Of a stretch of DNA of 32,000 nt, positions 2,066 through 5,246 are shown piece after piece. Positions within the stretch are counted from its first letter, which is position 1, and each line of letters starts with the position of its first letter. The DNA lies in assembly GCF_021057185.1 (NCBI RefSeq), contig NZ_CP054059.1, positions 1,020,001 through 1,052,000 on the forward strand, read 5' to 3'. The stretch is from Candidatus Absconditicoccus praedator (GTDB lineage Bacteria > Patescibacteriota > Gracilibacteria > Absconditabacterales > Absconditicoccaceae). The notes beneath the pieces are model-generated. The model saw nothing but the letters and a program-made list of their open reading frames with translations. It did no database searches and was not told where the DNA came from. The position numbers and the translations under genes are program-made.

Positions 2066-3031
2066 ATGCCAAACCCGATACTTCTTGAATCATACAACAA
2101 AATCAGTGAAGACAACAAACTTATTAGATTGGCAACTGTTACTACTATAATTTATTCTATAATTTTTGTTGTTTATGTGATTTACCAATTGTATTATATA
2201 GTTTCTGAATGAGCTGCTCAAGCAGAAACTATGGACATAGCTTTTGAATATATACAATTTTTTATGGACAACATCCAGTTTGCATGAGTTATAGTAACAT
2301 TAATAATCACTCTGGCTGTATGATACTTTCTATTGCCTCCCATAGCAGATTGAGCACTAATATCATATCTGAACAATCCTGAAAAATGATGAAAATCTTC
2401 TATATGAAAATGATTATTGAATTTTTTCCCTATGTTTGAATACAACAGTATGATGAGTGTGGTAAACTATTTGATTTTTTTCATCGCTGTTACTAGGTTG
2501 TGGGACATGGGCATATTAGAAAACACATTTGTACAAGTTGTAATTCTAATATGGGCTTTTATAATATTTTTTTCAACTATTTTTTTTCACTATTCAAAAT
2601 TTCTAATAATTATCGAATGATACTGACCGGTTGATGCTATCAAAAAAAGTATAGCATTAACACTTGAAAATTTTGGTATCACTCTAAAGTTTGTACTTAT
2701 GAACTATTTTTTATATATAAGATTCCTACTTAATATTGTAATAATAGTGATAATTCCATGGATTTTTATTTGGATATTTTATACATTATGAATTGATGAT
2801 ATCCAAATCATACAGTATTCTATGTATATTATCTTTTGAATTCTTATATTACTCACAGCATATATCAACTGAATCATAGAAGCTTTTTTTACTACTTATT
2901 GGTATAAAGTATACAAAACAATTACAAAGAATGAAGATAGCCAAGACAAAGACTCAAAGGAGACAAGCAAAGATGAAGATACCATTACACAACAAAACAC
3001 AAACACACAAGATAATGAAGAAAATATCTAG
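2066..3031 (+). CDS. hypothetical polytopic membrane protein with acidic/polar C-terminal tail
   Basis: ATG at 2066, 4 nt after the rluA-like stop. 321 codons ending in TAG at 3029. Several long hydrophobic stretches (IIYSIIFVVYVIY, VVILIWAFIIFFSTIFF, IVIIVIIPWIFIWIFY). Tail is KNEDSQDKDSKETSKDEDT... No family recognised. Confidence 0.6.
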
Positions 3032-3105
3032 TTTTGTATATTATTTTGAAAATTAGCAAAATCATTATAATAAACCTCCCCTTCAAACTTCCAATGAATA
3101 CTTTA

Positions 3106-3132
3106 GGGGGTGACCCTAGTCTTGTCCGAAAC
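3106..3132. repeat. IS left inverted repeat (GGGGGTGACCCTAGTCTTGTCCGAAAC)
   Basis: Matches the reverse complement of 4381..4407 at 23 of 27 positions by direct comparison. Confidence 0.75.
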
Positions 3133-3194
3133 ATTGATTTTATTATAAAAAAAGCTATAAGTATAGCATTTAAAATAATAAAATATATTTAAAT

Positions 3195-4376
3195 ATGGAA
3201 GGAATTAATGTAAAACAGATATTAGAAATAATACCTGATGAATTTATAGAAAAATTAGAAAAAAACTGTAATATAAATCATCAAGTTAAAAAAATGAGTT
3301 GAAAGGTAATGTTTAAACTGTTATTAATGTGAATATTAGATTGAGATAATTTAACACAAAGAACATTAGCATCAATATATAACAGTCCTGAATTTACTCA
3401 ATATGCAGATAAATGAGAACAACAAACAAGACATACAACTATAAGTGATAGACTTATAAACATGGATTATAAATTCTTTGAGAAATTGTTTGAAGAAATA
3501 AGTAAAAAGTTTGAAAAAGTATTAAAAATATGAGCAACAAAAATGAAGGTGGTGCTAAAGAGATTTGATTCTACATTAGTTTGAATATCAGAAAAACTAC
3601 TTAAGTTTTGAATAAAAGCATGAAGTCCAGATGAAAGACATATAAAATTTACAGTCTGATTAAAGTGATTGTTGCCAAATAAAGTTTCAGTTTATGAAGA
3701 GCAAAAAGCAAGTAGTGAAGATGTAGCATTATGAGAAACTATTTTACAAGAGACAACATCTAAAAATCAAATATTATTATTTGATAGATGAGTTCAAAAA
3801 AGAGAAACTTATTCAAAGCTAATAGATAAAAATACAAATTTTGTAAGTAGATTAAGACAAAATACTAAGTATCAAGTTATAAGACAAAATAAAGAAGTAG
3901 AATGAATAAAAGTATGAAATTTAGTGTTAGAATGTGATGAAATAGTAAAATTATATTGAAAATGATGAGATATATTAGAAAAAGAATTAAGATTAATAAA
4001 AGCAATAAATCAAAAAAATGAAGTATTTTTATTTATAACAAATATGTATAATTTCACAGCAGAAGAAATAACAGAATTTTATGCAAGGAGATGGGATATA
4101 GAAGTATTTTTTAGATTTATAAAACAAGAATTTTGATTTAGTCATTTTGTATCAAGATCAAAGAATTGAATAATGAATATGCTATATATGACACTAATAA
4201 CATCAATACTTGTAATAGTATATAAATCAAAAAACAGTATAAAATCCTACAAAGAAGCTAAAAGAAGATTTATTGCTGAATTAGATGAATTAATTTTAAT
4301 TGAGCTAGCAATAGCAATCTGAGGAGATGTTGATCTTCTTAAAAAGAAATATTTAAATTATTATAAATACTCTTAA
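3195..4376 (+). CDS. DDE transposase (DDE_Tnp_1, IS4/IS5 superfamily)
   Basis: 393 codons from ATG 3195 to TAA 4374. The C-terminal signature YARRWDIEVFFRFIKQEF is the Y-x2-R-x3-E-x6-K motif of IS4/IS5 DDE transposases. By my reading about 20 in-frame TGA codons are read as Gly. Confidence 0.85.
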
Positions 4377-4380
4377 TAAG

Positions 4381-4407
4381 GTTTCGGACAAGACTGGGGT
4401 AGCCCCT
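4381..4407. repeat. IS right inverted repeat (GTTTCGGACAAGACTGGGGTAGCCCCT)
   Basis: Reverse complement matches 3106..3132 at 23 of 27 positions. Begins 5 nt after the transposase stop codon. Confidence 0.75.
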
Positions 4408-4543
4408 CCAAAAGATTGTAACAAAAGGGATGGAGTACCCCCACTCCTAAAGATTGTAACAAAAGGGATGGAGTATTCTACTCTTACGGTTTGTTACCAA
4501 AAGGATGGAGTAAAGCACTATTTTTGTAACAATCTTTGAGAGG
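4405..4543. repeat. Three tandem 37-38-bp units closed by an inverted copy of the unit start (palindromic repeat module, MITE/REP-like or extended IS end)
   Basis: Units start at 4406, 4444 and 4481. A 27-nt core AAAGATTGTAACAAAAGGGATGGAGTA is identical at 4411..4437 and 4449..4475, and the third unit is degenerate. Unit junctions form short hairpins (GGAGTAcccccACTCC). The reverse complement of 4521..4543 matches 4405..4427 at 19/23. Confidence 0.7.
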
Positions 4544-4548
4544 TTTTC

Positions 4549-4577
4549 TTGAAATATTTTTTTTGATGTTGTATAAT
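4549..4577 (+). promoter_or_regulatory. sigma70-like promoter (TTGAAA-17 nt-TATAAT) for the 4635 gene
   Basis: TTGAAA at 4549..4554, a 17-nt spacer, and TATAAT at 4572..4577, 58 nt upstream of ATG 4635. Confidence 0.5.
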
Positions 4578-4634
4578 AATTAATAACTACTTTTTGATAA
4601 AATATATTTATTTTATCTCATAAACAAAAACAAA

Positions 4635-5246
4635 ATGTCCAAACTTCCTACAAAACTACAAACAAAAAAAGAGGATACAGAAACCCTGATAAATCTTCTA
4701 CAAGACCAAAAAGATAATTATTGAGATGAACAACTAATATTCCAAGCTCAACCTGATTTGATAGATCAACTACAGTATATGAAAAATGAAATTCTCAAAT
4801 GAGCAGAAGATTTGGATATCAAAGAGTCTGAAACTGATACTAGTAGACAAGAGCTTTGGAAAACACTAATTGATTTTGTTAACAGATTAAAAAACTATTA
4901 TAAAATCACCACAGAAAATTCAGAACTTCCCGAATGGATGTATTTCAAACCTCAAACAAATGAAACAGGCAAGGAGTTCCTCCAAAATTTTTTTGACAAA
5001 ATAGAAGAGGAGTTGTCCCAAGATTTCAGGGATTGATTTGATGAGATTTCAAACATTAGCATACAGGAAGCCAAGGATAGTTTTGAAGACTGGGAAAAAC
5101 AACAAAAATGAAAAGACTGGGATATGTATATAGAAAAAAGAAGAAATCTATCAAGATTGAACAATTATATCAAAATGGCTTTGATGATGACTGGTATGAC
5201 CAGATTTGAGATAAGAGCTTATTTGTATGATGAGGAGGAGTGATAG
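4635..5246 (+). CDS. hypothetical protein (acidic, helical, no recognised domain)
   Basis: 203 codons from ATG 4635 to TAG 5244. It joins track ORF 4812..5036 to flanking segments through in-frame TGA codons. No TAA/TAG in frame (checked codon by codon). Confidence 0.6.

What the first reader, a model, noticed from the sequence alone, without database searches (positions are those of the whole stretch)
3106..4407. Intact IS whose transposase is locked to the alternative code
A 1.3-kb IS has 27-bp imperfect IRs and a 393-aa DDE transposase carrying the Y-R-E-K signature. By my count about 20 in-frame TGA codons interrupt it for any standard-code host. The element can therefore only be active in UGA=Gly lineages. 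This suggests a mobilome confined by the genetic code, and the element could serve as a marker for horizontal exchange among recoded bacteria and their phages. It sits between conserved genes and an orphan gene pair, which suggests it delimits an accessory islet.
Basis: partly seen in the sequence, partly recalled or inferred. Interest (0 to 1): 0.6.

Follow-up and report, generated by a model that had tools for sequence, protein, structure and literature searches.

The report
Active IS4 transposon in recoded bacterium
This is an ordinary, recently active IS4-family jumping gene in a small predatory bacterium that reads UGA as glycine; its 20 in-frame UGA codons match the host's normal codon usage, and it lands specifically in the GC-rich tips of small hairpin repeats.

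Summary
Window 3195-4376 (+) encodes a 393-aa DDE transposase with exactly 20 in-frame TGA codons, a Y(2)R(3)E(6)K motif, an NCBIfam IS4 hit above cutoff and a Tn5-transposase-like predicted fold. The genome has four 1,280-bp copies, identical except base 1 of one copy, plus two fragments, so the element is intact and recently active.

Two corrections:
- **Ends.** The true element is 3117-4396 with 16-bp inverted repeats. This resembles IS186 and REP-targeting IS elements.
- **TGA count.** It is not special. TGA supplies 71% of glycine codons in host genes, and the IS density (5.1 per 100 codons) is near the host median (4.5).

The nearest relatives (51-79% identity) also carry TGA at the Gly positions. 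They form one well-supported clade among standard-code relatives, which in named genomes are mostly Bacteroidota and carry Gly there. This fits a code-confined lineage but does not separate code from host range. No link to code-25 phages was found.

The 9-bp duplications match only between different copies. Together with the GC-skew breaks, this points to IS-mediated rearrangement or misassembly, not an islet boundary.

Earlier scan notes on other copies in this genome reached similar readings. Verdict: new member of a known kind.

The parts
3108..3116 (.). Left flanking 9-mer GGGTGACCC, a copy of the GGG-N3-CCC hairpin-tip target and not part of the IS
   Evidence: Varies between otherwise identical copies. 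It is identical to the 9-mer right of the copy at genome 653,935-655,214.
3117..4396 (+). IS proper, 1,280 bp
   Evidence: Four genome copies are identical over exactly this span, except base 1 (T, or C in one copy).
3117..3132 (+). Left terminal inverted repeat TAGTCTTGTCCGAAAC
   Evidence: Read from the sequence. The core is conserved in the 79%-identity relative L031.
3137..3184 (+). AT-rich leader with a 23-nt imperfect inverted repeat (3137-3159 and 3162-3184) just upstream of the start codon; role unknown
   Evidence: the repeat finder pair I3, 83% complementary. No strong sigma-70-like site was scored here.
3195..4376 (+). Transposase gene: 393 aa, 20 TGA=Gly, 2 GGA, 1 TGG, stop TAA. 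Catalytic D125 (3567-3569), D197 (3783-3785) and E303 (4101-4103); Y296/R299/E303/K310 motif
   Evidence: AlphaFold model has pLDDT 84 and pTM 0.84. Best fold matches are Tn5 transposase, E about 1e-9.
4381..4396 (-). Right terminal inverted repeat (reverse complement CAGTCTTGTCCGAAAC)
4397..4405 (.). Right flanking 9-mer GGGTAGCCC (target copy)
   Evidence: Differs from the left 9-mer at two bases. It is identical to the 9-mer left of the copy at genome 930,590-931,869.
4397..4543 (+). Remainder of the 37-nt hairpin-repeat array into which the IS is inserted (units at 4403-4437, 4441-4475 and 4478-4512; inverted unit start at 4522-4543)
   Evidence: the repeat finder family D1 and pairs I6/I7. 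About nine such arrays occur in the genome.

Best explanation
Window 3117-4396 is one of four identical copies of a 1,280-bp IS4-family insertion sequence in the 1.13-Mb genome. Earlier scan notes name the organism as Candidatus Absconditicoccus praedator.

- **Transposase.** A single gene encodes a DDE transposase (D125, D197, E303, plus the YREK motif) with a Tn5-like fold. By inference from the family, it moves by cut-and-paste through hairpin intermediates.
- **Target.** It recognises the short GC-rich palindrome GGG-N3-CCC and duplicates those 9 bp. In this 28%-GC genome such sites are rare. Among sites not flanking the IS, the largest group (8) lies in the hairpin tips of intergenic 37-nt repeat arrays, and most IS ends abut such array units. 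This probably makes insertion harmless (inferred).
- **Codon usage.** The 20 TGA codons are glycine codons used at the host's normal frequency. The element is a long-resident, fully adapted member of a clade of IS4 elements found only with TGA=Gly coding. It is not a recent import.
- **Rearrangement.** After insertion, recombination between copies, or misjoining of repeats during assembly, exchanged the flanks of the copies.
For: Family:
- NF033592 scores 166 bits against a cutoff of 115, and DDE_Tnp_1 is hit.
- D-72-D-106-E spacing and Y(2)R(3)E(6)K fit the IS4 hallmarks given in PMC2266710.
- The predicted fold matches Tn5 transposase.

Activity:
- Four 1,280-bp copies differ at one base, all with intact ORFs, plus two fragments.

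Target:
- 10 of the genome's 29 overlapping GGG-N3-CCC matches abut IS ends. The one IS end that misses the pattern (GGGGTGACC) is one C short.
- 8 more sites are unoccupied 37-nt units whose GTTGAAGA/CTCCAAAAG context continues across occupied junctions.
- Standard-code relatives in Bacteroidota also sit in hairpin loops, with 7-11-bp duplications.
- IS186 targets GGGG(N6/7)CCCC (PMC5009759), and REP-targeting IS elements are known (PMC1525189).

Codon usage:
- In the host, TGA is 71% of Gly codons in 539 long ORFs, with a median of 4.5 TGA per 100 codons. The IS has 5.1, and its GC3 is as low as the host's.
- A 74-nt tRNA with anticodon UCA is present.
- Gly is near-invariant in 92 standard-code relatives at 5 of the 20 TGA positions and is the majority residue at 3 more. 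Trp is never found there.

Clade:
- 24 TGA-bearing clusters form one clade with SH-aLRT 100.
- Two relatives checked on their contigs translate only with TGA as sense.
- One of those contigs belongs near a different family of TGA-recoded bacteria.

Flank exchange:
- Exchanging segments 655-930 kb and 932-1023 kb gives three perfect 9-bp direct repeats and cuts the GC-skew switches from 10 to 8.
Against: - No single copy, as assembled, carries a matching 9-bp duplication. The target-duplication reading therefore depends on re-pairing flanks between copies.
- The pair formed by the left flank at 314 kb and the right flank at 1.2 kb matches only with a one-base indel.
- Two metagenomic relatives (L030, L031) show longer inverted flanks and no clear duplication.
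- Transposition, the hairpin mechanism and target recognition are inferred from family membership, not shown.
- No empty site from another strain could be recovered.
- Read data were unavailable.
Confidence: 0.88

Rival explanations
1. The genetic code itself is the operative barrier. The lineage entered UGA=Gly bacteria once, accumulated TGA codons, and can now spread only among recoded hosts and their phages. On this reading it serves as a tracer of exchange inside that group.
For: - All 24 closest clusters carry 9-24 TGA and form one clade, with no standard-code member nested inside.
- The clade occurs in at least two families of recoded bacteria.
- Code-25-only phages and prophages of these bacteria are documented (PMC10746230).
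Against: - The same pattern is expected from ordinary host-range limits or vertical descent.
- Transposase identity between the two host families (59%) is about the same as for their topoisomerase I (53%), so no transfer is demonstrated.
- P0077 may represent a second entry into recoded hosts.
- There is no phage copy of this clade.
- The element was not found in about 400 sampled genomes of the class. Of the TGA-bearing matches there, the best was 27% identity.
Confidence: 0.35
2. The mismatched flanks are an assembly artefact. Identical 1.3-kb repeats were joined in the wrong order, and in the real chromosome each copy has its own perfect 9-bp duplication.
For: - One exchange of two adjacent same-orientation segments repairs three junctions at once and simplifies the GC skew.
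- Short-read contigs of a public run break at these repeats.
- 9 of the 10 skew switches lie within 4.5 kb of an IS copy.
Against: - Real IS-mediated rearrangement gives the same picture.
- Even after the exchange, 8 skew switches and one unmatched copy remain.
- Two truncated copies, abutted by a 1.37-kb IS3-family element, show that real rearrangement occurred.
Confidence: 0.35
3. The GC-rich 9-11 bp at each end belong to the element (27-bp inverted repeats), and it inserts without a target duplication.
For: - The ends read as inverted repeats. They are perfect in the copy at 654 kb.
- Relatives keep CCCC next to the core repeat.
Against: - These bases vary (TGAC, TCAC, TAGC, and a one-base deletion) between copies that are otherwise identical over 1,280 bp.
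- The same 9-mer sits at the same place in unoccupied repeat units.
- IS4-family elements make duplications of about one helical turn (PMC2266710).
Confidence: 0.07
4. Fossil element or recent import from a standard-code donor.
For: None found.
Against: - Four copies are identical apart from the first base of one, and all are intact.
- Codon usage and GC3 match the host.
- The nearest standard-code relatives are at or below 49% identity.
Confidence: 0.02

Closest known systems
IS4 family insertion sequences (IS50/Tn5, IS10, IS186, IS4Sa/ISPepr1-type subgroups; De Palmenaer et al. 2008, PMC2266710)
   Same: - Single-ORF DDE transposase with D(72)D(106)E spacing and Y(2)R(3)E(6)K.
- Size of 1.28 kb, short terminal inverted repeats, and a right end beginning 5'-CA.
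- A 9-bp target duplication, inferred.
- NCBIfam IS4 model above cutoff, and a Tn5-like predicted fold.
   Different: - At or below 41% identity to relatives in named genomes and about 27% to named elements on plasmids (IS4Bsu1, ISTeha5).
- The left end is TA in four of five left ends.
- Written with TGA=Gly.
- Subgroup not assigned, because ISfinder is not available here.
IS186 of E. coli, target 5'-GGGG(N6/N7)CCCC-3' (Lee et al. 2016, PMC5009759)
   Same: An IS4-family element that recognises a short GC-rich palindrome and inserts in either orientation at rare sites.
   Different: - Here the palindrome is GGG-N3-CCC and the whole 9 bp appears duplicated. In IS186 only the 6-7-bp core is duplicated.
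- The targets are tips of a repeated hairpin element.
- No close sequence relationship to IS186 was shown.
REP/BIME-targeting IS elements (Tobes and Pareja 2006, PMC1525189; ISPpu9, PMC12288879)
   Same: Insertion confined to intergenic palindromic repeat units, giving nests of IS elements in repeat arrays.
   Different: Those elements belong mostly to other families (IS3, IS110) with other chemistries. The 37-nt arrays here are a lineage-specific repeat, not classical REP.
Mobile elements written in a host's alternative code: mycoplasma IS elements with UGA=Trp (ISMag1 shared between Mycoplasma species, PMC1868952) and code-25 phages and prophages of Absconditabacteria/Gracilibacteria (Liu et al. 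2023, PMC10746230)
   Same: Mobile DNA that carries many in-frame TGA codons and is therefore readable only in hosts with the matching reassignment.
   Different: This is an IS with UGA=Gly. I found no paper describing IS elements of code-25 bacteria. That mycoplasma transposase genes contain UGA codons is my own recollection, not checked here.

Membership tests
IS4 family (ISfinder sense, PMC2266710) | DDE triad with D(60-110)D(100-150)E spacing | tested here: met
   D125, D197 and E303 are invariant in 33 aligned relatives. The spacings are 72 and 106 residues (criteria).
IS4 family (ISfinder sense, PMC2266710) | Complete Y(2)R(3)E(6)K motif | tested here: met
   Y296, R299, E303 and K310, read from the translation. 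All four are invariant in alignment A1.
IS4 family (ISfinder sense, PMC2266710) | Transposase from a single ORF, without frameshift | tested here: met
   One 393-aa frame under table 25, identical in four copies.
IS4 family (ISfinder sense, PMC2266710) | Target duplication of about one helical turn (7-13 bp) | tested here: inconclusive
   Perfect 9-bp repeats appear only when flanks are paired between copies. Relatives in Bacteroidota show 7-11 bp duplications in place.
IS4 family (ISfinder sense, PMC2266710) | Curated profile match and Tn5-type fold | tested here: met
   NF033592 scores 166 bits against a cutoff of 115. Foldseek best hits are Tn5 transposase chains 4dm0, 1muh and 1mus, E about 1e-9, probability 1.00. 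A sequence-only PDB search found nothing.
IS4 family (ISfinder sense, PMC2266710) | Cut-and-paste transposition through a hairpin on the transposon ends | not testable with these tools
   Inferred from family membership only.
Gene written in translation table 25 (UGA=Gly) | In-frame TGA at positions that are Gly in standard-code homologues | tested here: met
   Gly in 92/92 standard-code relatives at residues 139 and 325, 91/92 at 199, 88/92 at 36 and 143, and 72/92 at 155. Trp is never found at these positions.
Gene written in translation table 25 (UGA=Gly) | Host has a tRNA reading UGA and uses TGA genome-wide | tested here: met
   A 74-nt tRNA with anticodon UCA lies at genome 383,059-383,132. 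TGA is 71% of Gly codons in 539 long ORFs. Loss of release factor 2 was not tested.
Site-specific (palindrome-targeting) IS, as IS186 or REP-targeting IS | Insertions confined to a defined sequence motif far beyond chance | tested here: met
   10 of 11 IS ends abut GGG-N3-CCC. The genome holds 29 overlapping matches in 1.13 Mb.

The most novel reading that the evidence does not exclude
A natural genetic firewall for a transposon. One IS4 lineage crossed once from standard-code bacteria (possibly Bacteroidota-like) into UGA=Gly bacteria and filled up with TGA codons, including at 11 to 12 of its 20 TGA sites where standard-code relatives mostly have Ser, Asn, Lys or another residue. It has since radiated only inside recoded hosts across at least two families. 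On this reading its tree, compared with the host tree, would measure gene flow within the recoded world.
Probability: 0.35. Interest if true: 0.45.

Novelty: new member of a known kind. Interest (0 to 1): 0.3.

Why it matters
- **Annotation.** The result fixes the true ends (1,280 bp, 16-bp inverted repeats), the target and the family of the main IS4 element of a cultivated Absconditabacteria predator.
- **Codon reading.** A high TGA count in a mobile element of a recoded host reflects host-typical codon usage. It is not a special adaptation.
- **Broader points.** The TGA-bearing relatives form a single clade, a small natural illustration of how codon reassignment can isolate mobile DNA. This idea is already tested in recoded E. 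coli (my recollection, not checked here) and described for code-25 phages (PMC10746230).
- **Genome order.** The flank and GC-skew analysis indicates that this genome, or its assembly, has been reshuffled at IS copies. That affects any synteny-based reading of the region.

Tried and rejected
- **Rfam** scan of 2900-4800 at E up to 1: no RNA family.
- **PDB** sequence search: no significant hit. The fold search was needed instead.
- **Class-wide search** of about 400 genomes: only distant IS4 elements, at or below 30% identity. Multi-copy IS elements are often missing from draft genomes, so this is weak evidence of absence.
- **Named genome collection:** returned only standard-code relatives, mostly Bacteroidota. 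I assume its confirmation step reads TGA as stop, which would under-rank recoded relatives, so host names for the recoded clade were not obtained. Cluster look-up gave no names.
- **Empty-site search.** Exact look-ups of flanking proteins found only short-read contigs that stop at the repeat. A metagenome scan for the left flank found nothing.
- **Metagenome scan** for the 15-nt inverted-repeat core: 120 hits, none encoding a relative, so all were chance matches.
- **Literature.** The paper describing the genome (doi 10.1111/1462-2920.15823) and the IS1634 paper are not held.
- **CRISPR reading** of the 37-nt repeats: rejected, because the units abut without spacers.
- **3-bp duplication** with GC runs inside the IS: rejected, because the GC runs vary between identical copies.

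Full report
**1. Observation**

Under table 25 the frame 3195..4376 (+) is open for 393 codons and contains 20 TGA codons. Under table 11 the longest ORF inside it is 49 aa. The TGA positions are residues 36, 46, 50, 74, 113, 130, 139, 143, 155, 158, 180, 199, 237, 241, 255, 257, 258, 314, 325 and 376. Only two Gly are GGA and one Trp is TGG.

The protein hits Pfam DDE_Tnp_1 (E 1.6e-20) and NCBIfam NF033592, an IS4 family transposase model, at 166 bits against a cutoff of 115. The motif Y296-x2-R299-x3-E303-x6-K310 can be read directly. D125, D197 and E303 are invariant in an alignment of 33 relatives.

An AlphaFold model built on that alignment has mean pLDDT 84 and pTM 0.84. Its best structural matches are Tn5 transposase chains at E about 1e-9 and probability 1.00.

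**2. Copies and true ends**

The window lies at 1,020,001-1,052,000 of a single-contig genome of 1,129,696 bp with 27.9% GC. Earlier scan notes name the organism as Candidatus Absconditicoccus praedator. I did not verify that name.

The genome holds four full copies, all on the + strand:
- 314,032-315,311
- 653,935-655,214
- 930,590-931,869
- 1,023,117-1,024,396 (the window copy)

It also holds two fragments:
- A 5' fragment at 605,193-605,357 on the - strand.

The four copies are each 1,280 bp and identical except for base 1, which is T in three copies and C in one. All encode the same intact protein. Identity ends exactly at window 3117 and 4396.

The inverted repeat is 16 bp: TAGTCTTGTCCGAAAC on the left and CAGTCTTGTCCGAAAC on the right when read inward.

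**3. The GC-rich ends are target, not element**

Outside the 1,280 bp every end abuts a GGG-N3-CCC block. The centre of that block differs between copies (TGAC, TCAC, TAGC), and one block lacks a C.

The same 9-mer occupies the same place in unoccupied units of a 37-nt repeat, GTTGAAGA-GGGTCACCC-CTCCAAAAGATTGTAACAAA. This repeat forms about nine short intergenic arrays.

The genome has only 29 overlapping matches to GGG-N3-CCC. Ten flank IS ends and eight are free repeat units. The IS therefore inserts in the tip of a small GC hairpin and duplicates it.

The behaviour has precedents:
- IS186, also IS4 family, targets GGGG(N6/7)CCCC (PMC5009759).
- REP-targeting IS elements are documented (PMC1525189).
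- Standard-code relatives in several Bacteroidota genomes sit in hairpin loops with 7-11-bp duplications.

An earlier follow-up note on another copy reached the same target conclusion.

**4. Flanks do not match within a copy but match between copies**

As assembled, no copy has identical 9-mers on both sides. Between copies they pair exactly:
- The left flank of the window copy equals the right flank of the 654-kb copy (GGGTGACCC). Together the two halves rebuild a hairpin, AGGGGG-TGA-CCCCCT.
- The left flank of the 930-kb copy equals the right flank of the window copy (GGGTAGCCC). Together they rebuild a complete 37-nt unit.
- The left flank of the 654-kb copy equals the right flank of the 930-kb copy (GGGTCACCC).

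Exchanging the two adjacent segments 655-930 kb and 932-1,023 kb restores all three perfect 9-bp direct repeats at once. It also lowers the number of GC-skew switches from 10 to 8, removing those at 655.2 kb and 1,023.1 kb.

Nine of the ten skew switches lie within 4.5 kb of a copy of this IS, of an 888-bp IS (about 11 copies) or of the 1.37-kb IS3-family element (with for the switch at 1,124.4 kb). Either the chromosome has been reshuffled by recombination between IS copies, or the repeats were joined in the wrong order during assembly. I could not decide between these, because read data were unavailable and short-read contigs stop at the repeats.

In either case the window copy marks a breakpoint, not the border of an islet. 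The downstream 203-aa gene is lineage-restricted. It has four paralogues in this genome and three in one related genus, and it was found in no other of the 70 family genomes searched.

**5. The TGA codons**

In 539 long host ORFs, TGA supplies 71% of glycine codons. The median density is 4.5 TGA per 100 codons, against 5.1 for the IS. About 7% of host genes have a TGA share as high as the IS's 91%. A 74-nt tRNA with anticodon UCA is present. The TGA load is therefore simply host-like.

TGA here means Gly. Among 92 standard-code homologues, Gly occupies:
- residues 139 and 325 in all 92
- residue 199 in 91
- residues 36 and 143 in 88
- residue 155 in 72

Trp never occupies these positions, whereas the one TGG codon (W300) is Trp in all 92.

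At 11 to 12 of the 20 sites, standard-code relatives mostly have another residue, for example Ser at 46, 50 and 130 and Asn at 314. The recoded relatives carry more Gly overall, with a median of 23 against 16.

**6. Relatives**

A search of the large protein collection gave 1,872 homologues. The closest clusters, at 51-79% identity, show W at the TGA positions. This means they were called with TGA as sense. Two of them checked on their contigs translate only that way.

I built a tree with all W masked, so that the trait itself could not drive the topology. In it, 24 recoded clusters form one clade (SH-aLRT 100) and a 25th is unresolved. No standard-code sequence is nested inside. The nearest standard-code rows, at 45-49% identity, fall in the same polytomy.

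In named genomes the standard-code relatives are mostly Bacteroidota, at or below 41% identity. A 15-kb contig carrying a 59%-identity relative has a topoisomerase I that best matches a different family of TGA-recoded genomes (63-71%) than the window's family (53%). The clade therefore spans at least two recoded families. With divergence comparable to that of a housekeeping protein, however, no transfer is demonstrated.

No relative occurs in phage records. Viral contigs hold only 32%-identity relatives, which aligned as one uninterrupted stretch.

**7. Comparison and verdict**

All sequence-testable hallmarks of the IS4 family listed in PMC2266710 are met. The duplication length is inferred.

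Mobile DNA locked to a host's alternative code is already known. Examples are code-25 phages and prophages (PMC10746230) and IS elements shared among UGA=Trp mycoplasmas (PMC1868952). That mycoplasma transposase genes contain UGA is my own knowledge. I found no paper on IS elements of code-25 bacteria.

This is a new member of a known kind. Its single-clade distribution is a modest point of interest, and the finding also gives a useful caution about the order of this genome's segments.

Noticed in passing
whole genome G000; switches at about 100.6, 213.9, 473.9, 488.8, 609.4, 655.2, 764.6, 989.1, 1023.1 and 1124.4 kb: The GC skew is a mosaic with 10 sign switches instead of 2. This suggests repeated IS-mediated inversions or translocations, or assembly misjoins.
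   Followed up: partly
window 4397-4543; genome arrays near 173.4, 228.3-229.8, 315.3, 476.4, 605.4, 653.9, 930.5-932.0, 1024.4 and 1085.8 kb: A family of spacer-less 37-nt hairpin-repeat arrays with a fixed order of unit types. The stems differ between unit types but stay complementary. No Rfam family matched the window copy.
   Followed up: partly
genome 228,356-229,742 (- strand): A different element of about 1.4 kb interrupts another 37-nt array. A similar end sequence lies immediately left of the IS4 copy at 314 kb, so the arrays act as nests for several IS types.
   Followed up: no
window 4549-4577 and 4635-5246: A near-consensus promoter-like site (TTGAAA-17-TATAAT) at the distal end of the array lies 58 bp upstream of a 203-aa gene with no Pfam match. 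The gene has four paralogues in this genome, one of them just upstream of the array at 930 kb, and three in one related genus only.
   Followed up: partly
loci L042, L043, L045, L094, L095, L098, L100, L102, L061, L063, L099: Standard-code relatives of this IS in Bacteroidota genomes are inserted in the loops of palindromic hairpins with 7-11-bp duplications, for example GCTGGGA-[TTTGCAA]-TCCCAGC. Hairpin-loop targeting looks like a trait of the whole subgroup.
   Followed up: partly
transposase residues 46, 50, 130 and 314 (window 3330-3332, 3342-3344, 3582-3584, 4134-4136): In the recoded clade these sites are TGA (Gly), whereas standard-code relatives have Ser or Asn (Asn in 86 of 92 at residue 314). 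Recoded members carry a median of 23 Gly against 16, suggesting that TGA codons were gained at non-Gly sites after the code change.
   Followed up: no
genome 653,935: The copy at 654 kb has C as its first base, giving a perfect 16-bp inverted repeat and the usual 5'-CA end. The other three full copies and the 5' fragment have T.
   Followed up: no
loci L130 and L131 (IMG/VR contigs): Two viral contigs carry full-length IS4 relatives at 32% identity, aligned as one uninterrupted stretch. They are not members of the recoded clade.
   Followed up: no
loci L030:7341-8711 and L031:1649-2976: Two recoded relatives are bracketed by perfect outer inverted repeats of 17 and 15 bp, separated from the IS repeat by unmatched bases and with no clear duplication. 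This may reflect insertion into larger palindromes or chimeric contig flanks.
   Followed up: no
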